Part shown: positions 6,096 through 52,967 of the stretch, in pieces
Numbering within the stretch: the stretch's first letter is position 1
How the letters are laid out: each line of letters opens with the position of its first letter
NCBI GenBank assembly: GCA_964016885.1
Contig: OZ024740.1
Location: 408,270,001-408,334,000, forward strand
DNA length: 64,000 nucleotides
Origin: Eledone cirrhosa
Lineage: Eukaryota
Reading direction: 5' to 3'
The notes under the pieces: model-generated
Database searches by the model: none
Told to the model about the DNA's origin: nothing
What the model saw: the letters and a program-made list of their open reading frames with translations, nothing else
Translations under genes and position numbers: made by a program

Positions 6096-7133
6096 ACGTC
6101 CACTTTTCCCTGCTTGCAAGGGTGGGATGGGAACTGATTCTGGCTTGATTTCTACAGCTGGATGCCCTTCCTAACACCAACCTCATTTACAGTGAGTGCT
6201 GGGTGCTTTTTTGCCGTGGCACCTCCATGACCACTTTGCAGTGGAATGATAGGGACCCCAGTCCTATCATCTCATTTCTACAGCTGAGTAAACTGGAGCA
6301 ATGTGAAATAAAGTGTCTTGCTCAAGGAAACAACACATCACCTGGGGGTATTTTGTTAGAGATGCCTACTGGCTGTAGTAGGTTTTACTATGTATTTAGG
6401 TAAGGCGAGTCTTCTCTGTTACTGAGTACCGCCAAAGGTCTCGGTCCAGTGACATTGTCTTGGAGAGGTGTAAGTGTGTGAGGTCGGAATTTATCAGCTC
6501 GTCCCAGGTTTTTCTAGGTCTGCCTATTCCGTGGCTACCGTCTATCTTTATTGCCCTGCACTTTGTTATACAGCTATCGACTTTTATGCGCATCACGTGT
6601 CCATACCAACGTAGCCTTCTCTCGAGTAAACAACATCTGATCCCTCTTATTTCTAATTTTTTCCTTAGTTCGTTTATGCTTTGCCGTTCACGTATATTAC
6701 TGTTACACATCCAGCGGAGCATTCAAGCTTCGTTCCTCTCTAGTCTGCGTATATCCTCTGCACACAATGCCCAGGTCTCACTGCCATGCAACATTGCTGT
6801 TCATATGCAGGCATCGTACAACCTGCCTTTCATTTTTAGGGAGAACCCTTTAGCAGCTAATAGTGGTATAAGCTCTCTGAACTTTTTCCAACCAGTTCTG
6901 ACTCTAGCTACTGTACTTTCAGAGCACCCTCCCCCACTGCTGATTTTATCACCCAGGTAACGGAAACTGTCCACTATTTCTATAGAACCCTCTGCGCAAT
7001 TGAAAGAGCTAGTATTTTGTGGGCACTTGCTGCTACTTATTGCACCAGAGCACCGGCGACATGTAAAATCTATGTTCTTAGTTAGCTTACCTGTAATCCC
7101 ACTACATCTTTTATGCACCCATACTTTGCATTT

Positions 7134-7137
<4 letters not shown>
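6066..7137 (-). mobile_element. Composite: RTE-A ORF 3' part (7137-6346) joined to SINE-2 core and RTE-B-type tail (6345-6066)
   Basis: ORFs 6801-7118 and 6396-6722 are the RTE-A C-terminus; 6066-6345 is the reverse complement of about 31016-31290; (TA)n on both sides. Confidence 0.88.
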
Positions 7138-7194
<57 letters not shown>

Positions 7195-7199
<5 letters not shown>

Positions 7200-7907
7200 T
7201 TATCGCTTGTTAAATACGAGGATCTCACTTAAACCTATTCTTCTCATATAATATTTTAAATATATTTGTTATTATTTCAAACTCTTAATTCCCGCTGCTT
7301 AATATCTTCTCCCCCTCCACCACACTCTACAACATGCGGTCAACCCCCCCCCCCCTCTCTCTCTCTATCTATATATATATAAGATAACCCCCACAAGTAA
7401 TTCACTTTCGCCAAATTTGTGGCCGTTTTTCCTTCATGGTATAATGTAATGTACACATTTTTCTAGCTTTTCTAACATCCGCTTAATTTCATAGTCCTTC
7501 CAAATCCTATAGCATTTTCTATCCTCATTCCAATAGCCATTCCATCCTATTTCCTCCTGTATTCTATGTATTCTCTCTCGTATTTTCCAAAACAAATCTT
7601 GTATTTTTGTTATCGCTTGTTAAATACGAGGATCTCACTTAAACCTATTCTTCTCTCATATAATATTTTAAATATATTTGTTATTATTTCAAACTCTTAA
7701 TTCCCGCTCCTTAATATCTACTCCCCCTCCACCACACTCTACAGCATGCGGTCAACCCCCCCCTCTCTCCCCCTCTATCTATATATATATAAGATAACCC
7801 CCACAAGTAATTCACTTTCGCCAAATTTGTGGCTGTTTTTCCTTCATGGTATAATGTAATGTACACATTTTTCTAGCTTTTCTAACATCCGCTTAATTTC
7901 ATAGTCC
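7195..7907. repeat. ~410-bp tandem repeat (about 1.75 units) directly upstream of full-length RTE-A
   Basis: TTTTGTTATCGCTTGTTAAATACGAGGATCTCAC recurs at 7195 and 7605. Homologous to 52373-52937 (reverse complement). Confidence 0.92.
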
Positions 7908-10900
7908 AACAACTCAACACCCCTCCCTCCCGCCCCCACGCACCACCATTATTATTACGTGGACCAATCATAAGCCAGAGGCCTATACTATCGCTTACCT
8001 GGTCGCCTTCGATATGTAGGATGGAAGGACTACGGAGTTCCGGAGAGTTGAAGAGAGAAAAATCTGGACGCTCAGCGACAATGCCAAAGATAAAGACAAA
8101 CACACCTCGTGGACGAGAATGCGAGCATTCCTCTTTGTTTCGGCCGCGGATGGCTAACATAAGCCCATCTCCCCCCGCTCCCCACCGCTCCCACCCTCCA
8201 AACGCAATCCAAAACTTCAGAGTTGGTACCTTGAATGTAGGCACCTTAAAGGGTCGCTCTAACGAGGTTGTAGAAATGTTTGAACGTAAGGAGGTCGATG
8301 TTTGTTGTATTCAAGAGACCAGGTGGAGGAGTGGATCTGCTAGATTCATTGTGGGTAGAAAACGATGCTATAAGCTTTTCTGGGTGGGAAATGACAATGA
8401 GCTGGGTGGAGTAGGATTCATGGTAGCAGAAAAGTGGGCAGATAAGATAATAGACGTAAATAGAGTGAACGACAGAATAATTAAAATAAGACTTGTCCTC
8501 AATAGAACTACGGTGACAGTAATATCTGCGTACGCACCCCAATCCGGACTGCCCAGCACTATAAAAGACAGATTCTATGAGACACTGATGCTCACTACCT
8601 CCCAAATAACCGACAGTGACTATATAATTATTGCAGGCGACCTAAACGGTCACGTTGGACAACATTGTGACGGCTACGACGAAATCTATGGAGGTTATGG
8701 GTTTGGTACTAGAAATGAGGAAGGCTCCAGAATCCTGGAATTCTGTGACGCAAATAACCTAACTATCTGCAACACTAACTTCAAAAAACGAGACAATCAC
8801 TTGATCACCTACAGATCAGGGGAACATACCAGCCAGGAAGATTATATCCTTACCAGAAGACGTAACAGAGTGACTGTTGTAAACACTAAATCCCTCCCCC
8901 ATGAAGAATGCACCTCCCATAGACTGATAATTAGCGACCTAATAGTCAGGACGAGACGTACTAGACAACAGAAGAGGACTATCCTCAGGAGAAAAATATG
9001 GAAGCTAAAGGACCCCACAGCCAAAAATAAATTTCAAAGCATATTAGTTGATGCTTTCGACAGTAAGGAAGAGCAATTAGAGTCGTACAAGGTAGAGGAA
9101 CAGTGGGAATTCCTGAAAGCAAACCTGCTGACGGCGGCAGACGAAGTTTGTGGCTGAAGCAGGCCTGTAGGCAGGAGGAGAGTAACATGGTGGTGGAACA
9201 GTAAGGTGGAGGGGTCAATTAAGGCCAAAAAGCAGGCTTGGAAAGTATGGCGGGATGGGGGAAGCAGAGAAGACTGTCAAGTGGCCAGGAGGGAAACTAG
9301 GAGACAAGTGTACTTCGCAAGAAGGGAAGCAGAGGAAAGAAAGTTCAAGCACGTTCTACAACGTGAGGACCAAAAACGTGAGGTGTTCAGGATTGCTAGG
9401 CAATGTGTCAAGGAAAACAGTGATATTGTTGGGGAGAAGTGTGTACTTAATGATGACGGCGTACTTGCCATCACCAATGCTGATAAGAAGGTAGCTTGGA
9501 AGTGTCACTATGAAAGGCTACTAAATGAGGAGAATAAATGGGAGAAAGACAGTCTCCCCCACATCGACCCAATAGAGGGACCAGCAGTGTTAGTCGAGGG
9601 TAGTATCATAAGTAAGGCAATCAAAGATATGAAGACGGGTAAGGCGGCTGGGCCTTCGGAAATAGTTGCTGAGACGCTGAAGGCATCTGGTACGGTGGGA
9701 CACACCATGGTCACCCGGATAGTCAACCAAGTCATACAGAATGGGGTTGTTCCGAAGGACTGGCGTAGCAGCATCATCATTAACTGTTATAAGGGTAAAG
9801 GAGATGCCCTAGATAGGAGTAACTATAGAGGCATTAAATTAATAGACCAGGTCATGAAGGTCACGGAAAAAGTAATAGCGCAACTAATCAGAGAGCGAAT
9901 TGATCTAGATGAAATGCAGTTCGGGTTTGTGTCAGGAAAAAGTACCACAGACGCTCTTTTCATTGTACGACAACTACAGGAGAAGTACCTAGCTAAAAGT
10001 AAACCCCTATACTTAGCTTTTGTTGACTTGGAGAAAGCCTTTGACAGAGTCCCCCGCTCCATTATCTGGTGGGCTCTTAGAAAACTAGGTGTTGATGAAT
10101 GGCTTGTGAGAGCTATACAAGCCATGTATAAAGAAACAGTCAGCAAGGTTAGAATTAACAACGAATATAGTGAAGAGTTTAGTGTAAAAGTTGGTGTTCA
10201 TCAGGGCTCTGTTCTTAGCCCCCTACTATTTATTATTGCCCTCCAGGCTATGACAGTGGAGTTCAAGACCGGCTGCCCATGAGAACTCCTATACGCAGAT
10301 GATCTAACGCTCATAGCTGAATCAATGGCTGAGCTAGAGAAGAAATTCCAAACATGGAAGCACGGCCTAGAATCAAAAGGCCTTAAAATTAACCTGGCTA
10401 AGACTAAAGTTCTAGTTTGTAAGAAAGAAAATAAGGCGGCGGTCCCCTCCGGGAAGTGGCCATGCTCAGTGTGTAGGAAAGGCGTAGGTAGAAACTCCAT
10501 TTTGTGTCCCAAATGCAAAGTATGGGTGCATAAAAGATGTAGTGGGATCACAGGTAAGCTAACTAAGAACATAGATTTTACATGTGGCCGGTGTTCTGGG
10601 GCAATAAGTAGCAGCAAGTGCCCAAAAAATACTAGCTCTTTCAACTGCGCAGAGGGTTCTATAGAAATAGTGGACAGCTTCCGTTACCTGGGTGACAAAA
10701 TCAGCAGTGGGGGAGGGTGCTCTGAAAGTACAGTAGCTAGAGTCAGAACTGGGTGGAAAAAGTTCAGAGAGCTTATACCTCTACTAGCTGCTAAAGGGTT
10801 CTCCCTAAAAATGAAAGGCAGGCTGTATGATGCCTGCATACGAACAGCAATGTTGCATGGCAGTGAGACCTGGGCATTGTGTGCAGAGGATATACGCAGA

Positions 10901-11599
10901 CTAGAGAGAAACGAAGCTTGCATGCTCCGCTGGATGTGTAATAGTAATATACGTGAACGGCAAAGCATAAACGAACTAAGGAAAAAATTAGAAATAAGAG
11001 GGATCAGATGGTCACGTGATGCGCATGAAGGACGATAGCTGTATAACAAAGTGCAGGGCAATAAAGATAGACGGTAGCCACGGAATAGGCAGACCCAGAA
11101 AAACCTGGGACGAGCTGATAAATTCCGACCTCACACACTTACACCTCTCCAAGACAATGTCACTGGACCGAGACCTTTGGCGGTACTCAGTAATAGAGAA
11201 GACCCGCCTTACCTAAATACAAAGTAAAACCTACTACAGTCAGTAGGCATCTCTAACAAAATACACCCCCCCCCACCCCATCCACACCGCCCCTTTCAAT
11301 GTAAAGTTATGTTGGTGCCACAACATCCAGGCCGAAACAAATGAGATCGTGTAGGTGCCACGTCAAAAAAACACACAGTTCACGCTGTAATGTGGCCGTG
11401 TAGGCAACACGGTAAAAACCTCCCAGCCCCACACTGTAAATGTGGTTGGTGTTAGGAAGGACATCCAGCTGTAGAAAACCCGCCAGACAGTCCTATGCGA
11501 GCAAGATAATCACTCTTGCCTCAAGTGGGAAACCCCCATCCAAACCCATACAAGCGTGGAACACGGACGTTAAACGTTGATGATGATGATGATGATGAT
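7908..11599 (+). mobile_element. Full-length RTE-clade LINE (family A), inactivated; single APE-RT(+PHD) ORF about 8021-11216
   Basis: APE motifs (TLNVG, IQET, SAYAPQ, GDLNGH), RT motifs (FVDLEKAFDRV, GVHQGSVLSP, YADD, FRYLG), RTE C-terminus GRPRKTW, (GAT)n tail. Stops at 9155 and 10280; ~32-bp deletion near 11010. Confidence 0.97.
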
Positions 11600-11614
11600 A
11601 TATGTATGTATGTA

Positions 11615-19349: not shown

Positions 19350-20802
19350 GGTGTATTTTTGTTAGAGGTGCCTACTGACTGTAGGTTTCGCTTTGTACTT
19401 AGGCAAGGCGGGTCTTCTGTATTACTGTGTAGCGCCAAAGATCTCGGTCCAGTGACATTGTCTTGGAGAGGTGTGAGGTTGGAATTTATCAAGTCGTCCC
19501 AGGTTTTTCTGGGTCTGCCTACTCCGTGGCTACCGTCTATTTTTATCGCCCTGCACCTTTTTATACAGCTGTCGTCTTTCATGCGCATCACGTGACCATA
19601 CCAACGTAGCCTTCTCTCGAGTAAACAACATCTGATTCCTCTTATTCCTAATTTCTCCCTTAGTTCATTTATGCTTTGCCGTTCACGTATATTACTATTA
19701 CACATCCAACGGAGCATGCAAGCTTCGTTCCTCTCCAGTCTGTGTATATCTTCTGCACACAATGCCCAAGTCTCACTGCCATGTAACATTGCTGTTCGTA
19801 TGCAGGCATCATACAGCCTGCCTTTCATTTTTAGAGAGAACCCTTTAGCGGCCAATAGTGGTATAAACTCTCTGAACTTTTTCCATCCCGTTCTGACTCT
19901 AACTACTGTACTTTCAGAGCACCCTCCACCACTGCTGATTTTATCACCCAGGTAACAGAAGGTGTCCACTATTCTATAGAACCATCTGTGCAATGGAATG
20001 AGCTAGTATGCTCTGGGCACTTGCTGCTACTTATTGCACCAGAGCACCGGCCACATATAAAATCTATATTCTTAGTTAGCTTACCTGTGATCCCACTACA
20101 TCTTTTATGCACCCATACTTTGCATTTGGGACATAAAATGGAGTTTCTGCCTACTCCTTTCCTACACACTGAGCATGGCCATTTCCCAGATGGGACCAGT
20201 GCCCTATTTTCCTTCCTACAAACTAGAACTTTAGTCTTAGACAGGTTAATTTTAAGGCCTTTTGATTCTAGGCCATGCTTCCATGTTTGGAATTTCTTCT
20301 CTAGTTCAGCCATTGATTCAGCTATGAGCGTTAGATCATCTGCGTATAGAAGTTCCCATGGGCAGCCGGTCTTGAACTCCTCTGTTATAGCCTGAAGGGC
20401 AATAATAAATAGTAGGGGGCTAAGGACGGAGCCCTGATGAACACCAACTTTTACGCTAAATTCTTCACTATATTCGTTGTTAATTCTAACCTTGCTAACT
20501 GTTTCTTTATACATGGCTTATATAGCTCTCACAAGCCATTCATCAACACCTAGTTTTCTAAGGGCCCCCCCCCAGATAATCGAGCGGGGCACTCTGTCAA
20601 AGGCTTTCTCCAAGTCAACAAAAGCTAAGTATAGGGGTTTACTTTTAGCTAGGTACTTCTCCTGTAGTTGTCGTACAATGAAAAGAGTGTCTGTTGTACT
20701 TTTACCTGACACAAACCCGAACTGCATTTCGTCTAGATCATTTCGCTCTCTGATTAGTTGCGCTATTACTTTTTCATGACCTGGTCGATTAATTTAATTC
20801 CT
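19350..20802 (-). mobile_element. RTE-A fragment truncated at both ends
   Basis: ORFs 19313-19993, 19969-20514 and 20518-20727; 3' UTR and tail missing. Confidence 0.95.
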
Positions 20803-21103
20803 CAGAAACAATGAAATTGGTTTCAATTGAACTGACATCAATTATTATAACAGATTATTTGAGAAGGACCAAAATAGGGTAAAGTGATTTGAAGAGACAT
20901 TATTTCAATACTGGATGTACCAATACCCACCATTCCTTTGAAAGTGGAGTAGAATAATTTCAATACTGGAAACAGCATTATCTACTGTTCCTTTGACAAG
21001 TCAAGTGATGTGAAGAAACATTATTTCAATATTGAATATATTGTTATCCAAGATTTAAATAAACATCTCGGCTTGAGAGGATACCCTCATGTCCACAGCA
21101 TTC

Positions 21104-21734: not shown

Positions 21735-24662
21735 ATGGATAGGTTTTACGAGTCCCTAATACACACTACTGCTCTAACAGACGACAAGGACTTCCTAATC
21801 ATCGCAGGAGATTTTAACGGACACGTAGGTAAACACTGCGACGGCTTCAATAGAGTACATGGAGGCCATGGAGTTGGCACAAGGAATGAGGAAGGATTCA
21901 GACTTCTAGAATTCTGCGACGCCAATGACATGTCGATATGTAACACAAACTATAAAAAACCCAACAACCACCTGATCACCTATAGATCAGAGGAGCACTC
22001 TAGTCAGTTAGATTTTATCCTCATCAGAGGACGTGACAGATGGACGGTCGTAAACACAAAAGCTTTCCCTAGTGAGGAATGTACATCCCAACATAGCTTA
22101 GTTGTCAGCGACCTCACGGTCAGAACTAGACGAGCCCTGAAACAGAGGCCAACCTGGAGAAGAAAGATCTCGAAGCTGAAAGTCCCCTCAACCAGTAACA
22201 GATTTAAAGATATTTTACTCAACGCCTACGACAGTAAAGAAGAACAGATACAGACATTTAATGTAGAAGAGAACTGGGAGTTCCTAAAAAATAATTTACT
22301 AGAGGCGACGGACGAGGTCTGTGGCTGGAGTAAGACCTCAAGCAGGAGGAGAGTGACTTGGTGGTGGAACAATAAGGTAGATGAAGCAGTCAGGGCCAAG
22401 AGACAGGCATGGAAAGAATGGAAGAACGGGGGGAGCAGGGTACATTACATAGAGACCAAGAGGGAAGCTAGGCGACAAGTATACTTAGCTAGGAGGGAAG
22501 CAGAGGATAGAAAATTCAAGCATGTTTTACAACGTGAGGACCAGAAACAGGAGGTATTCAAGATTGCGAGGCAGTGTGTCAGAGATAGTTGTGATGTCAT
22601 TGGAGAGAAGTGTATCCGGAATGATAAAGGTGAGCTTGCCCTCACAAGTGCTGAGAAGAAAGATGCATGAAAGAGTCATTATGATAGATTACTAAATGAG
22701 GAGAATGCATGGGAAGAAGAGACCCTACCCCAAGTAGACCCTATAGAGGGACCAGCAGTACAAGTCAGCGGCAGCGTAGTAAGTAAGGCAATCAGAGATA
22801 TGAAGATGGGGAAGGCAACCGGTCCATCGGGTATAGCTGCCGAGATGCTGAAGGCATCTGGGTCTGTAGGTCACACTATAACCACACGTATCGTTAACCA
22901 GGTAATACTAGAAGGGGCCATACCAAAAGATTGGTGCAGTAGCATCATTGTCAACTGCTACAAAGGCAAAGGCGACGCACTAGATAGAGGAAACTATAGA
23001 GGTATAAAGTTGATGGACCAGGTCATGAAAGTAACAGAAAGAGTTATAGCACAGCTGATTAGGGACCGGGTGAATATAGACGAGATGCAATTTGGGTTTG
23101 TACCAGGAAGAGGCACCACTGATGCCCTCTTCCTTGTGAGGCAATTACAGGAAAAGTACCTAGCTAAAAGTAAGCCACTCTACTTGGCATTTGTCGACCT
23201 TGAGAAAGCCTTTGACAGAGTTCCACGTGCTGTAATCTGGTGGGCTCTTAGAAAACTAGGAGTAGATGAATGGCTTGTGAAAGCGGTACAAGCCATGTAT
23301 AGGGGAGCAGTCAGCAAAGTTAGGATTAGCAATGAGTATAGCGTACAGGTTGGAGTCCACCAGGGCTCTGTTCTTAGCCCTCTCCTGTTCATCATAGTCC
23401 TGCAGGCAATAACGGAGGAATTTAAGATCGGATGCCCATGGGAACTCCTGTATGCTGATGACCTCGCACTCATAGCTGAATCTATGATAGAACTAGAGAA
23501 TAAATTCCAAACCTGGAAGCAGGGACTAGAGAGAAAGGGTCTCAAAGTCAACATGACAAAGACTAAGGTCCTTGTAAGTAGACGAGAAAACAGAACCCAG
23601 ATCCCCTCAGGGAAATGGCCTTGCTCAGTATGTAGGAAAGGTGTAGGTAGGAACTCCATTCTCTGCCCCAAATGCAAACAATGGGTACACAAGAGATGTA
23701 GCGGGATCTCAGGAAGCTTAATTAAGAATGTAGGATTCACATGCAGCAGCTGTGCTGAAACAGCAAGCAGCAAACAGCCACAGGAAACAAGTACCACCAA
23801 TCTCTGGCAGGGCCCTGTAGAAACAGTAGACAGCTTCTGCTACCTAGGTGACCGAATTAGCAACGGAGGTGGGTGTTCAGAAAGTACAATAACTAGGGTA
23901 AGAACGGGATGGAAGAAGTTTAGGGAACTACTACCACTGCTAGCTGCAAAAGGCTTCTCCCTCAGAATGAAAGGCAGACTGTATGATGCGTGTATCCGAA
24001 CAGCGATGTTGCATGGTAGTGAGACCTGGGCGCTGAAGGTGGAAGACTTACGTAGATTAGAGAGAAACGAAGCCTGCATGCTCCGATGGATGTGTAACAG
24101 TAATATACGTGAACAACAAAGCATAAATGAATTGAGAGAGAGACTGAGCATAAGAGGAATCAAATGCTGTGTGCAGGAGAGGCGGTTGCGCTGGTATGGA
24201 CATGTGATGCGTATGAAGGATGACTGCTGCATAAAAAGGTGCAGAGCACTAGAAGTCGATGGAAACCGCGGAGTGGGGAGACCTAAGATGACCTGGGATG
24301 AGGTGATAAAAGCCGACCTTACCCAATTACACCTCTCAAAGACAATGACACACGACCGTGACTTCTGGCGTCACGCAGTAATACAGAGTACCCGACCTCC
24401 CATGGGTACATGCTGAAGCATATAAACAATATGCCCCCACACCTCCCACCGCAAGGTGGTCGTGGAGGTGCCACGGCAAAAAAGCACCCAGCACTCACTG
24501 TAAATGAGGTTGGTGTTAGGAAGGGCATCCAGCTGTAGAAATCAAGCCAGATCAGTTCCTGTATGAGCAAGGCATGGTCAGCCGACCAGACACTGCACAC
24601 AACAGGACAACCCGTCTAACCCATGCTAGCGTGGAAGAACGGACGTAAAACGGTGATGATGA
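21735..24662 (+). mobile_element. 5'-truncated RTE-clade LINE (family B); partial APE, RT with PHD finger, C-terminus
   Basis: ORFs 21735-22670 and 22800-24416 are in the same frame, split by TGA at 22668; YADD present; 3' UTR distinct from family A; GATGATGA tail. Confidence 0.97.
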
Positions 24663-45096: not shown

Positions 45097-45244
45097 AGCA
45101 TGTAAAACTGTAGTAATACAAGCATGTAAAACTGTAGTAATACAAGCATGTAAAACTGTAGTAATACAAGCATGTAAAACTGTAGTAATACAAGCATGTA
45201 AAACTGTAGTAATACAAGCATGTAAAACTGTAGTAATACAAGCA
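45097..45244. repeat. Perfect 24-bp tandem repeat, six copies plus 4 nt (AGCATGTAAAACTGTAGTAATACA)
   Basis: Direct inspection; no spacers. Confidence 0.97.
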
Positions 45245-48641: not shown

Positions 48642-48676
48642 ATATATATATGTGTGTGTATATATATATATATATA

Positions 48677-51600
48677 TCATCATCATCATCGTCATCGTTT
48701 AACGTCCATCTTCCACGCTTGCATGGGTTTGGACGCAAGAGTGGTTGTCTTGCTCACATAGGAATGTCTGGCGGGTTTTCTACGGCTGGATGCCCTTCCT
48801 AACACCAACCACGTTTACAGTGTGGACTGGGAGGTTTTTACCGTGTTACATACACGGCCACATTACAGCGTGGACTGTGTTTTTTTTGTCGTGACACCTA
48901 CACGACCTCATTTGTTTCGGACTGGATGTTGTGGTACCAACATAACTTTAAATTGAAAGGGGTGGTGTGGATGGAGTGGGGGTAGTGGGACGGGGATGTA
49001 TTTTTGTTAGAGGTGCCTACTGATTGTAGTAAGTTTCACTTTGTACTTAGGTAAGGCGGGTCTTCTATATTACTGTGTAGCGCCAAAGATCGCGGTCCAG
49101 TGACATTGTCTTGGAAAGGTGTAAGTGTGTGAGGTCGAAATTTATCAAGTCGTCCCAGGTTTTTCTGGGTCTGACTACTCCGTGGCTACCGTCTATTTTT
49201 ATTGCCCTGCACTTTTTTATACAGCTGTCGTCTTTCATGCGCATCACGTGACCGTACCAACGTAGTCTTCTCTCGAGTAAACAACATCTGATCCCTCTTA
49301 TTTCTAATTTTTCCCTTAGTTCATTTATGCTTTGTCGTTCACGTATATTACTATTACACATCCAGCGGAGGATGCAAGCTTCGTTTCTCTCTAGTCTGCG
49401 TATATCCTCTGCACACAATGCCCAGGTCTCACTGCCATGCAGCATTGCTGTTCGTATGCAGGCATCATACAGCCTGCCTTTCATTTTTAGAGAGAACCCT
49501 TTAGCGGCCAATAGTGGTATAAGCTCTCTGAACTTTTTCCATCCAGTTCTGACTCTAGCTACTGTACTTTCAGAGCACCCTCCACCACTGCTGATTTTGT
49601 CACCCAGGTAACGGAAGGTGTCCACTATTTCTATAGAACCATCTGCGCAATGGAATGAGCTAGTATTCTGTGGGCACTTGCTGCTACTTATTGCGCCAGA
49701 GCAGCGGCCACATATAAAATCTATATTCTTAGTTAGCTTACCTGTGATCCCACTACATTTTTATGCACCCATACTTTGTATTTGGGACATAAAATGGAGT
49801 TTCTGCCTACTCCTTTCCTACACACTGAGCATGGCCATTTCCCAGATGGGACCGGTGCCCTATTTTCCTTCCTACAAACTAGAACTTTAGTCTTAGACAG
49901 GTTAATTTTAAGGCCTTTTATTTCTAGGCCATGCTTCCATGTTTGGAATTTCTTCGCTAGTTCAGCCATTGATTCATCTATGAGCATTAGATCATCTGCG
50001 TATAGGAGTACCCATGAGCAGCCAGTCTTGAACTACTCTGTTAGAGCCTGAAGGGCAATAATAAATAGTAGGGGGCTAAGAACGGGGCCCTGATGAACAC
50101 CAACTTTTACTCTTCACTATATTCGTTGTTAATTCTAACCTTGCTGACTGTTTCTTTATACATGGCTTGTATAGCTCTCACAAGCCATTCATCAACACCT
50201 AGTTTTCTAAGAGCCCACCAGATAATGGAACGGGGGACTCTGTCGAAGGCTTTCTCCAAGTCGACAAAAGCTAAGTATAGGGGTTTACTTTTTGCTAGGT
50301 ACTTCTCCTGTAGTTGTCGTACAATGAAAAGAGCGTCTGTGGTACTTTTACCTGACACAAACCCGAACTGCATTTCATCTAGATCAATTCGCTCTCTGAT
50401 TAGTTGCGCTATTACTTTTTCTGTGACCTTCATGACCTGGTCAATTAATTTAATGCCTCTATAGTTACCCCTATCTAGGACATCTCCTTTACCCTTGTAG
50501 CAGTTAATGATGATGCTGCTACGCCAGTCCTTCGGAACAACCCCATTCTGTATGACTTAGTTTACTATCCGGGTGACCATGGTGTGTCCCACCGTTCCAG
50601 AAGCTTTCAGCATTTCAGAAACTATTTCTGAAGGCCCAGCCGCCTTACCCGTCTTCATATCTTTGATTGCCTTACTTATTATACTACCTTCGACTAACAC
50701 TGCTGGTCCCTCTATTGGATCGATGTGGGGGAGACTGTCTTTCTCCCATTTATTCTCCTCATTTAGTAGCCTTTCGTAGTGACACTTCCAAGCTACCTTC
50801 TTATCAGCGTCAGTGATGGCAAGTACACCATCATCATTAAGGACACATTTCTCCCCGACAATATCACGGTTTTCCTTGACACATTGCCTAGCAATCCTGA
50901 ACACCTCACGTTTTTGGTCCTTGCGTTGTAGAACATGCTTGAACTTTCTTTCCTCTGCTTCCCTTCTTGCGAAGTACACTTGTCTCCTAGCTTCCCTCCT
51001 GGCCACTTGATAGTCTTCTCTGCTTCCCCCATCCCGCCATACTTTCCAAGCCTGCTTTTTGGCCTTAATTAACTCCTCCACCTTACTGTTCCACCACCAT
51101 GTTACTCTCCTCCTGCCTATAGGCCTGCTCCAGCCACAGACTTCATCTGCCGCCATCAGCAGGTTTGCTTTCAGGAATTCCCACTGTTCCTCTATATTGT
51201 ACGACTCTAATTGCTCTTCCTTACTGTCGAAAGCATCAAGTAATATGCTTTAGAATTTATTTTTGGCTGTGGGGTCCTTTAGCTTCCATATTTTTCTCCT
51301 GAGGATAGTCCTCTTCTGTTGTTTAGTACGTCTCGTCCTGACTATTAGGTCGCTAATTATGAGTCTATGTTGAGAGGTGCATTCTTCATGGGGGAGGGAT
51401 TTAGTGTTAACAACAGACACTCTGTCACGTCTTCTGGTAAGGATATAATCTACCTGGCTGGTATGTTCCCCTGATCTGTAGGTGATCAAGTGATTGTCTC
51501 GTTTTTTGAAGTTAGTGTTGCAGATAGTTAAGTTATTTGCGTCGCAGAATTCCAGGATTCTGGAGCCTTCCTCATTTCTAGTACCAAACCCATAGCCTCC

Positions 51601-52372
51601 ATGGATTTCGTCGTAGCCGTCACAATGTTGTCCAACGTGACCGTTCAGGTCGCCTGCAATAATTATATAGTCACTGTCGGTTATTTGGGAGGTAGTGAGC
51701 ATCAGTGTCTCATAGAATCTGTCTTTTATAGTGCTGGGCAGTCCGGATTGGGGTGCGTACGCGGATATTACTGTCACCGTAGTTCTATTGAGGACAAGTC
51801 TTATTTTAATTATTCCGTCGTTCACTCTATTTACGTCTATTATCTTATCTGCTCACTTTTCTGCTACCATGATTCCTACTCCACCCAGCCCATTGTAGTT
51901 TCCCACCCAGAAAAGCTTATAGCATCGTTTTCTACCCACAATGAATCTAGCAGATCCACCCCTCCACCTGGTCTCTTGGATACAACAAACATCGACCTCC
52001 TTACGTTCAAGCATTTCTACAACCTTGTTAGAGCGACCCTTTAAGGTGCCTACATTCAAGGTACCAAATCTGAAGTTTTGGATTGTGTTTGGGGGGTTGG
52101 AAAGGTGGGGAGCGGGGGGAGATGGGGTTACGTTAGCCATCCGCGGCCGAAACAAAGAGGCATGCTCGCATTCTCGTCCACGAGGTGTGATTGTCTTTAA
52201 CTTTGGCATTGTTGCTGAGCGTCCAGATTTTTCTCTCTTCAACTCCGTAGTCCTTCCATCCTACATATCGAAGGCGACCAGGTAAGCAATAGTATAGGCC
52301 TCTGGCTTATGATTGGTCCACGTAATAATAATGGTGGTGTGTGGGGGCGGGAGGGAGGGGTGTTGAGTTGTT
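48677..52372 (-). mobile_element. Second full-length RTE-A LINE, inactivated
   Basis: Six broken minus-strand ORFs (51853-52242 to 49065-49625) cover APE-RT-PHD-C-terminus. 5' end AACAACTCAACAC is the same as at 7908. Confidence 0.97.
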
Positions 52373-52937
52373 AGCGAGAAGGATAGGTTTAGGTGAGATC
52401 CCCGTATTTAATGAACGTAAACAAAAATACAAGATTTGTTTAGTAAAATACGCCAAAAACTTCCGTATTTTTACAAGCATGACAGAAATACAAGAGATTT
52501 GTTTTGGAAAATACATGGGGAAATAGGATGGATGGATGACTAGTGAGACAAGAATTGGAAAGAGGATAGAAAAAATGCTATTGGAAGGACTAAATATGCT
52601 ATTGGAAGGACTATGGAATTAGGCGGATGTTAGAAGAGGTAGAAAAATGAGTACATTACATTATAACCATGAATGAATGAAATTCAGCCACAAATTTGGC
52701 GAAAGTGAATTACTTTGTCTTATATATGTATATGGGTAGAGAGAGAGAGGGGGGTGGTGGTGGTGATTTGACCGCATGTTGTAGAGTGTGGTGGAGGGGG
52801 AGAAGATATTAAGGAGCGGGAATTAAGAGTTTGAAATAATAACAAATATATTTAAAATATTGTTAAGAGTTTGAAGTAACAAATATATTTAAAATATTTG
52901 TATATGAGAAGGATAGGTTTAGGTGAGATCCCCGTAT
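52373..52937. repeat. Homologue of the 7195-7907 repeat (one ~530-bp unit plus ~32-bp terminal redundancy)
   Basis: GAGAAGGATAGGTTTAGGTGAGATCCCCGTAT at 52376 and 52906; shared GCCACAAATTTGGCGAAAGTGAATTAC and GGGAATTAAGAGTTTGAAATAATAAC blocks. Confidence 0.9.
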
Positions 52938-52967
52938 ATATATACATATATATATATATACATATAC

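What the first reader, a model, noticed from the sequence alone, without database searches (positions are those of the whole stretch)
7195..7920. Both full-length RTE-A copies start at the same base and are joined to the same >1-unit repeat in different phases
Seen: copy 1 (7908, +) and copy 2 (52372, -) both begin AACAACTCAACACCCCTCCC. Directly upstream of each, in the same relative orientation, is the same repeat family, then (TA)n. Copy 1 has about 1.75 x 410-bp units, junction ...CATAGTCC|AAC. Copy 2 has one ~530-bp unit plus ~32 bp of terminal redundancy, junction ...CCTTCTCGCT|AAC. The repeat does not continue at either 3' flank, so it does not look like a simple target site. Inference: either (a) a variable 5' promoter-monomer array, as in rodent L1, or (b) the RT finishes the RTE RNA and jumps onto a circular or multimeric satellite RNA. 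Option (b) would explain the permuted, more-than-unit-length copies and imply a hitch-hiking partner RNA.
Basis: partly seen in the sequence, partly recalled or inferred. Interest (0 to 1): 0.75.

Follow-up and report, generated by a model that had tools for sequence, protein, structure and literature searches.

The report
Regrowing monomer array heads RTE LINE
The repeat is the normal front end of a young jumping-gene family, a short stack of ~500-base units joined at one fixed point in nearly all copies (the odd copy here has a one-off deletion), and it likely acts as a spare-promoter stack, as in mouse and rat LINE-1, that is likely rebuilt by re-copying its last unit.

Summary
The sequence facts are right, but the 'different phases' are not a family trait. 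All 65 exact copies of the element's head have the repeat directly upstream; 64 share copy 2's junction. Copy 1 has a private ~160-nt deletion, found once in the genome. The repeat is the element's own 5' monomer array: 5'-truncated at scattered points (0.04 to over 3 units), co-inherited with the ORF (Mantel rho 0.75), inserted with the body as one unit into (TA)n-rich targets, and never a long satellite. No ribozyme was found, so the circular-partner model is not supported. Upstream monomers match their own copy's terminal monomer (about 2% apart, against 11% between subfamilies), and 11 of 46 internal junctions carry the first bases of the unique head, so new units are copied from the terminal one. 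Head-less arrays end at that same junction, just before a minus-strand G-quadruplex motif; a stall there may drive re-copying (inferred, mixed support). Promoter activity is untested; no RNA holder was listed. This scan has reported such RTE arrays before, in this genome and others. New variant of the rodent-L1 monomer design.

The parts
7137..7195 (.). (TA)n target microsatellite, not part of the element
   Evidence: TA-rich flank on the 5' side of 31, the 3' side of 36 and both sides of 26 of 57 copies with a locatable tail
7195..7245 (+). Copy 1: last 51 nt of monomer -3 (5' truncation point of the insertion)
   Evidence: (0 substitutions in 47 columns against monomer -2)
7246..7655 (+). 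Copy 1: complete 410-nt monomer -2 (subfamily D); TATA-like TATATAAG at 7376
7656..7907 (+). Copy 1: terminal monomer -1, lacking its last ~158 nt and GCT (private deletion, no microhomology seen); TATA-like motif at 7786
7908..8151 (+). Copy 1: unique head (tether) between array and endonuclease coding region; CCAAT-type motif GACCAATCA at 7962, also in the RTE-B head
   Evidence: the motif name is recalled
7920..7937 (-). Four-run G-quadruplex motif on the minus (cDNA) strand, CCCCTCCCTCCCGCCCCC on +; also reads as GC boxes (name recalled)
   Evidence: motif scan only; folding not tested
8021..11038 (+). Copy 1: single ORF region, AP endonuclease - reverse transcriptase - PHD finger, broken by two stop codons and a 32-nt deletion
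11039..11600 (+). Copy 1: end of ORF region, 3' UTR with a C-rich tract near 11264, and (GAT)n tail
52906..52940 (-). Copy 2: last 35 nt of monomer -2 (5' truncation point), next to (TA)n
52373..52905 (-). Copy 2: complete 530-nt terminal monomer plus GCT; the family's standard junction
48676..52372 (-). Copy 2: head (G4 motif at 52343-52360), broken ORF, 3' UTR and tail

Best explanation
The repeat is a tandem monomer array that forms the 5' end of this LINE family and is inherited with it, copy 1's odd phase is a private deletion, the monomers likely act as expendable promoters, and new monomers are likely made by re-copying the terminal monomer. Shown: fixed 3' junction, scattered 5' ends, co-inheritance, insertion as one unit, near-identity of monomers within a copy, head bases left at internal junctions. 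Inferred: each monomer holds a TATA-type start, so a unit is lost per generation and must be replaced; replacement happens when DNA synthesis stops at the monomer/head border and restarts at the monomer's beginning. My preferred trigger is a stall of plus-strand synthesis before the minus-strand G-quadruplex motif in the head (about 35% for this step alone).
For: 65 of 65 exact heads have monomer upstream, 64 in one phase. Of 20 heads picked because they lacked the exact standard junction, 13 are in-phase variants, 3 are rearranged at the junction and 4 are truncated inside the head. Array length is 0.04-1.63 units in 64 distinct copies, 25 of them at least one unit; two further loci hold 2.07 and over 3 units. 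Monomer distance tracks body distance (rho 0.75, 0 of 999 permutations, n=65); monomer type needs 9 changes on the ORF tree against 26.2 for shuffles, minimum 5 (50 of 65 copies). Targets continue across array plus body (L158, L111, L130). L212 joins 56 nt of the element's 3' end to inverted monomers. In 18 of 26 copies the upstream monomer's best or tied-best match among 86 is its own terminal monomer, the rest rank 2-8. 11 of 46 internal junction rows carry GCT, GCTAA or GCTAACAACT from the head. The longest array has three different internal junctions. In the older RTE-B family 8 of 10 placeable duplications end 1-34 nt before its own C-tract.
Against: No transcription start was measured. 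5' ends show no sharp peak, only a drop beyond about position 230 of monomer -2, and TA microhomology with targets confounds them. The monomer is 34% GC with 8 CpG, unlike rodent CpG-island monomers, while GC-box and CCAAT-type motifs lie in the head, not the monomer. Within-copy divergence (median about 2%, pooled 3.5%) is about twice nearest-neighbour body divergence (median 1.0%), so re-copying at every insertion is not shown. Two paralogous loci differ by exactly one monomer (L107, L188), so DNA-level change also occurs. For the G4 step: breaks lie 2-16 nt from the motif, whereas worm G4 deletions lie within 3 nt; all 51 deletions of 15 nt or more show no polarity (left 8, right 10); only 11 of 30 RTE-B heads have the strict motif.
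Confidence: 0.78

Rival explanations
1. A short linear RNA ending at the monomer/head border (premature termination or partial cleavage of the element's own transcript) serves as acceptor for reverse-transcriptase template jumps; it adds monomers to arrays and caps truncated bodies.
For: Seven independent head-less arrays end within -3 to +11 of the junction (L101, L107/L188, L181, L244, L245, L250, L251); three are fused in sense to distant body fragments. In the unbiased monomer census 4 of 9 breaks fall in 15 of 415 nt (p=2e-4, window chosen after seeing the data). Non-LTR RTs jump between separate templates (PMC8857657 abstract).
Against: 0 of 122 intact heads abut flank, so the main template is not cut there. 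No ribozyme in Rfam; the junction fold is no better than shuffles (z -0.16). Similar one-sided breaks occur at two other C-tracts far from the array (6 of 36, p=0.002, hand-curated).
Confidence: 0.2
2. The array is a 5' UTR that expands and homogenises by ordinary DNA-level events (unequal exchange, slippage) in source elements, with no retrotransposition-coupled step; it need not be a promoter.
For: L107 and L188 differ by one precise monomer; L098 shows a genomic triplication of flank plus monomer; short local duplications at the junction occur (L143, L173, L199); most internal junctions (35 of 46) carry no head bases.
Against: Homologous exchange copies junctions unchanged, yet one array has three different junctions at the same border and four classes carry head bases. 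Two unrelated monomer sequences occupy the same place in two families.
Confidence: 0.2
3. One reading: the RT finishes the element's RNA and jumps onto an independent circular or multimeric satellite RNA, giving permuted copies.
For: Three heads are joined to the middle of a monomer (copy 1, L043, L197).
Against: Phase is fixed in 64 of 65; monomer variants follow the ORF tree and copy 1 carries its own clade's monomer; no long free arrays among 72 of 72 monomer matches; no hammerhead core on either strand and no Rfam ribozyme.
Confidence: 0.03

Closest known systems
Mouse L1Md (A, Tf, Gf; ~200 bp) and rat L1 (~600-650 bp) monomeric 5' UTR with tether (PMC5381506 passages; PMC6454616 passages and Discussion; PMC10620060 passages)
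   Same: Variable number of tandem monomers, fixed 3' border to a ~250-nt unique tether, 5' truncation inside the array, fast turnover relative to the ORF. Rat L1 is nearest in unit size and low copy number. How monomers are duplicated is stated there to be unclear; expansion at second-strand priming and unequal crossing-over are the two proposed models.
   Different: Single-ORF APE-RT-PHD element, not L1. Monomers are AT-rich and CpG-poor. Here the terminal monomer is the template, whereas PMC6454616 infers intermediate monomers for one mouse mode. Promoter activity and start sites are unmeasured.
Plant SolRTE 5' UTR switching (bioRxiv 10.1101/2022.11.04.512097, abstract and one Discussion section)
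   Same: RTE-type LINEs with rapidly exchanged, non-homologous 5' ends on a conserved body; the two families here have unrelated arrays.
   Different: The parts read describe replacement of 5' UTRs, not tandem monomer arrays.
Perere-3 RTE with 5' twister ribozyme (PMC8501958 passages) and animal retrozymes (PMC7229834 abstract)
   Same: RTE-type element with a sharply defined 5' border; tandem units of a few hundred nt.
   Different: No ribozyme found; target DNA never abuts the head start (0 of 122); the unit is not an independent element.
RTE-2_OV of Octopus vulgaris (PMC9115989 passages)
   Same: Single ~3.3-kb ORF with endonuclease, RT and zinc finger, microsatellite tail, ~600-nt 5' UTR.
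   Different: No monomer array is mentioned in the passages seen; its sequence was not compared (two short motifs absent from 8 of 12 supplementary files searched).
G-quadruplex-induced polar deletions in C. elegans (PMC4654259 and PMC12426944 passages)
   Same: One breakpoint fixed on the 3' side of the G-run, the other variable, with microhomology.
   Different: There within 3 nt of the first G and 50-300 bp long; here 2-16 nt away and up to kilobases, and proposed also to give duplications.

Membership tests
L1-type monomeric 5' promoter array (works-like) | Tandem monomers in variable number at the 5' end, fixed 3' border to a tether | tested here: met
L1-type monomeric 5' promoter array (works-like) | Monomers are carried in the element's RNA and inherited with it | tested here: met
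   (L212); genomic evidence only
L1-type monomeric 5' promoter array (works-like) | Each monomer has promoter activity and an internal start site | not testable with these tools
   no RNA holder listed; TATA-like motif only
L1-type monomeric 5' promoter array (works-like) | 5' ends cluster at one site in the monomer | tested here: inconclusive
   broad spread, mild excess at 220-280 and 440-530, drop beyond -2:230
L1-type monomeric 5' promoter array (works-like) | CpG-island monomers | tested here: not met
   34% GC, 8 CpG in 530 nt
L1 clade | ORF1 plus ORF2, poly(A) tail | tested here: not met
   one ORF region, (GAT)n tail
RTE clade LINE | Single ORF with AP endonuclease and RT, microsatellite 3' tail | tested here: met
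   many close homologues are ~1030-1100-aa APE-RT-PHD proteins
RTE clade LINE | RT phylogeny inside the RTE clade | not tested
Retrozyme / circular satellite RNA | Self-cleaving ribozyme in each unit | tested here: not met
Retrozyme / circular satellite RNA | Independent, permuted tandem copies in the genome | tested here: not met
Retrozyme / circular satellite RNA | Circular RNA in vivo | not testable with these tools

The most novel reading that the evidence does not exclude
These LINEs renew their own promoter during integration: synthesis of the plus strand stalls at a G-quadruplex in the cDNA just past the terminal monomer (or the RT lands on a short RNA ending there), slips back and re-copies the monomer. 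The junction scars in two families would then record the unsolved step by which monomer promoters, including those of rodent L1, escape erosion.
Probability: 0.3. Interest if true: 0.75.

Novelty: new variant of a known kind. Interest (0 to 1): 0.47.

Why it matters
Monomer promoters are known mainly from rodent L1, where how lost units are replaced is stated to be unclear (PMC6454616). Here an unrelated LINE has the same design with short arrays whose junctions keep readable scars: head bases at internal borders, head-less arrays ending at the same border, and a parallel in a sister family. That makes the direction of copying visible and the mechanism testable in a one-monomer reporter.

Tried and rejected
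Rfam scans of both junction regions gave only (TA)n-driven or sub-threshold hits. A twister-like reading of the junction (long stem from monomer end to head +140) folds no better than shuffles and is rejected as unsupported. RNA runs: no RNA holder listed; three contig sets of unknown kind, one sample, were laid and gave no informative joint. The 1110-bp period at L098 is a local triplication of flank plus monomer, not a longer unit. An antisense-RNA origin of head-less pieces is rejected because three are fused in sense to body fragments. A fixed start at the monomer border is not supported in the unbiased set (about 10 of 64 ends in a 54-nt window, 6.5 expected; by hand). L210 as an inter-subfamily recombinant was not shown: its body groups with its array type. 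Three apparent two-monomer copies (L024, L136, L145) were (TA)n artefacts and were dropped. The RTE-B table had a self-overlap bug; one search replaces it. The fuzzy classifier counted L043, L189 and L198 as in phase; I corrected these by hand. The Atlas held no entry for the RT piece. A look-up of earlier findings by the monomer sequence gave nothing.

Full report
Observation. The window lies in G000:C1. Both copies start with the same 22 nt and are 92.7% identical over 3.7 kb. Copy 1 has 51 nt + 410 nt + 252 nt of the repeat (7195-7907); copy 2 has 35 nt + 530 nt + GCT (52940-52373). The body is one ORF region with AP endonuclease, RT and PHD finger, ending in (GAT)n. The label RTE rests on this architecture; no clade-named homologue was returned. 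That the host is probably an octopus comes from an earlier unchecked note on this genome, not from my tests.

The phase is fixed. An exact 27-nt head pattern has 65 matches in the genome. All 65 have monomer sequence directly upstream (19 nt in the shortest) and 64 end in the CTTCTCGCT|AAC junction or a point variant; copy 1 is the exception (L139 and L140 are one duplicated locus). Copy 1's junction has one match genome-wide. It lacks the last ~158 nt of its terminal monomer plus GCT. To look for counter-examples I fetched 20 heads (100 of 122 listed) that had no exact standard junction beside them: 13 are in-phase variants, 3 are rearranged at the junction, 4 are truncated inside the head. 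Of 129 distinct heads held, 122 keep the head start, and none of these abuts non-monomer flank.

The repeat is not a satellite. An internal 27-nt monomer pattern has 72 matches, all examined: 57 run into the head in phase, 5 into another monomer, 1 into a head out of phase, 4 stop at the monomer end, 5 stop inside the monomer (two rows re-binned by hand). Exact patterns miss diverged copies. Arrays are 0.04-1.63 units in the 64 distinct unbiased copies; loci found by other searches reach 2.07 and over 3 units. 5' ends are scattered over the monomer, with a drop beyond about position 230 of monomer -2. (TA)n is the preferred target: TA-rich flank on both sides in 26 of 57 copies, and in unique targets the flanks continue across array plus body.

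The array travels with the element. Monomer and body distances correlate (rho 0.75, 0 of 999 permutations, 65 copies), the monomer being about five times more diverged (median 17% against 3%). Monomer type needs 9 changes on an ORF tree of 50 of 65 copies (15 interrupted, short or duplicate bodies left out), against 26.2 for shuffles and a minimum of 5; copy 1 groups with copies of its own monomer type at 100/99. Kin share labels, so this shows co-inheritance only. L212 joins 56 nt of the element's 3' end to inverted monomers, and L108 and L106 carry inverted monomers at their 5' ends, as expected for twin priming on one RNA (term recalled).

New monomers come from the terminal one. In 26 copies with two overlapping monomers (3 artefacts dropped) the upstream one matches its own terminal monomer best or tied-best among 86 in 18 cases and ranks 2-8 otherwise. 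Within-copy divergence has a median near 2% (pooled 107 of 3056), against 11% substitutions between monomer clusters. Of 46 internal junction rows, 11 (10 loci) read through the monomer end into GCT, GCTAA or GCTAACAACT of the unique head and then restart at the monomer's beginning, in four sequence classes. The longest array has three different internal junctions. Against a purely RT-coupled process, L107 and L188 differ by exactly one monomer, and within-copy divergence is about twice nearest-neighbour body divergence (median 1.0%).

A hot spot at the border. Seven independent arrays without a head end within -3 to +11 of the junction; three are fused in sense to distant body fragments. In the unbiased census 4 of 9 breaks fall in 15 of 415 nt (p=2e-4, post hoc). 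Head +13 to +30 is a four-run G-quadruplex motif on the minus strand. The older RTE-B family (224 exact heads; first 30 examined) has unrelated arrays and a similar C-tract; 8 of 10 placeable duplications end 1-34 nt before it and none includes it. At the two other C-tracts of the body, 6 of 36 stops or large-deletion left ends lie at the tract (3.7% expected, p=0.002; curated by hand, four alignment artefacts removed), and deletions of 150 nt or more start near a tract in 3 of 12 and end near one in 0 of 12. Against this: no polarity over all 51 deletions (8 left, 10 right), strict motif in only 11 of 30 RTE-B heads, and distances larger than the 3 nt seen in worms. Arrays must end before a tether anyway, which weakens the RTE-B parallel.

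Mechanism. Shown: array, fixed phase, co-inheritance, direction of copying, border hot spot. Inferred: monomers are promoters (TATA-like motif at 7376 and 7786; drop of 5' ends 40-100 nt behind it), lose one unit per generation as in mouse L1, and are replaced when synthesis stops at the border and restarts at the monomer start. I favour a G4 stall in plus-strand synthesis (about 35%) over a short acceptor RNA (20%) and DNA-level exchange alone (20%). A circular partner is at 3%: no ribozyme, no free arrays, fixed phase.

Literature seen. PMC9115989 passages and a search of 8 of its 12 supplementary files (files 5-8 not searched and could hold the octopus element's sequence). bioRxiv 2022.11.04.512097 abstract and section 12 (supplements not seen). 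PMC6007223, PMC8857657, PMC7229834 abstracts. Passages of PMC5381506, PMC8501958, PMC10620060, PMC2718515, PMC12426944, PMC4654259. PMC6454616 passages and Discussion. Searches for an RTE 5' monomer array showed no paper describing one in their listings; one search had no hit; the library lacks most subscription journals and Repbase.

Verdict. A real feature and a convergent variant of the rodent L1 monomer design, already noted by this scan in other families of this genome and in other genomes (unchecked notes). What is added here is the refutation of the permuted-phase idea and the junction scars that bear on how such arrays regrow. Interest 0.47.

Noticed in passing
window 21738-24394 (5'-truncated copy); L214-L243: The older RTE-B family (79% protein identity in the RT region) has its own 5' arrays, unrelated in sequence, with periods of about 150-550 nt and a ~98-nt minisatellite in L232; its junction phase differs between lineages.
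   Followed up: partly
window 7950-7975 and L107 RTE-B head: RTE-A and RTE-B heads share CACCACCAT...GACCAATCA behind a C-tract although the rest of their 5' ends is unrelated; promoter-like motifs sit in the tether rather than the monomer.
   Followed up: partly
window 6344-7136 and 19350-20803: Two element fragments in this window stop at the start of the 3' UTR C-tract and lack the tail.
   Followed up: partly
L107 / L213 (G000:C28): A monomer-only piece ending at GCT sits inside an RTE-B ORF with a 19-nt target deletion; two paralogous loci differ by exactly one monomer.
   Followed up: partly
L098:4340-7130: Local triplication of ~560 nt flank + (TA)n + monomer, period about 1110 nt, in front of one full-length copy.
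   Followed up: partly
L111, L160, L161, L100 flanks: Several non-TA insertions hit the same dispersed repeat (TTAACCCTTTAGCATT...ATTACTCTATAT), a possible second preferred target.
   Followed up: no
G000 one search list: 55 of 65 exact heads lie on the four largest contigs, which hold about 54% of the assembly.
   Followed up: no
L135, L136, L137, L149, L210 element position ~3342: The same 28-nt deletion near the end of the ORF is shared by copies with different monomer types, which may mark recombination between subfamilies.
   Followed up: no
window 45097-45244: Perfect 24-nt tandem repeat, 6.2 copies.
   Followed up: no
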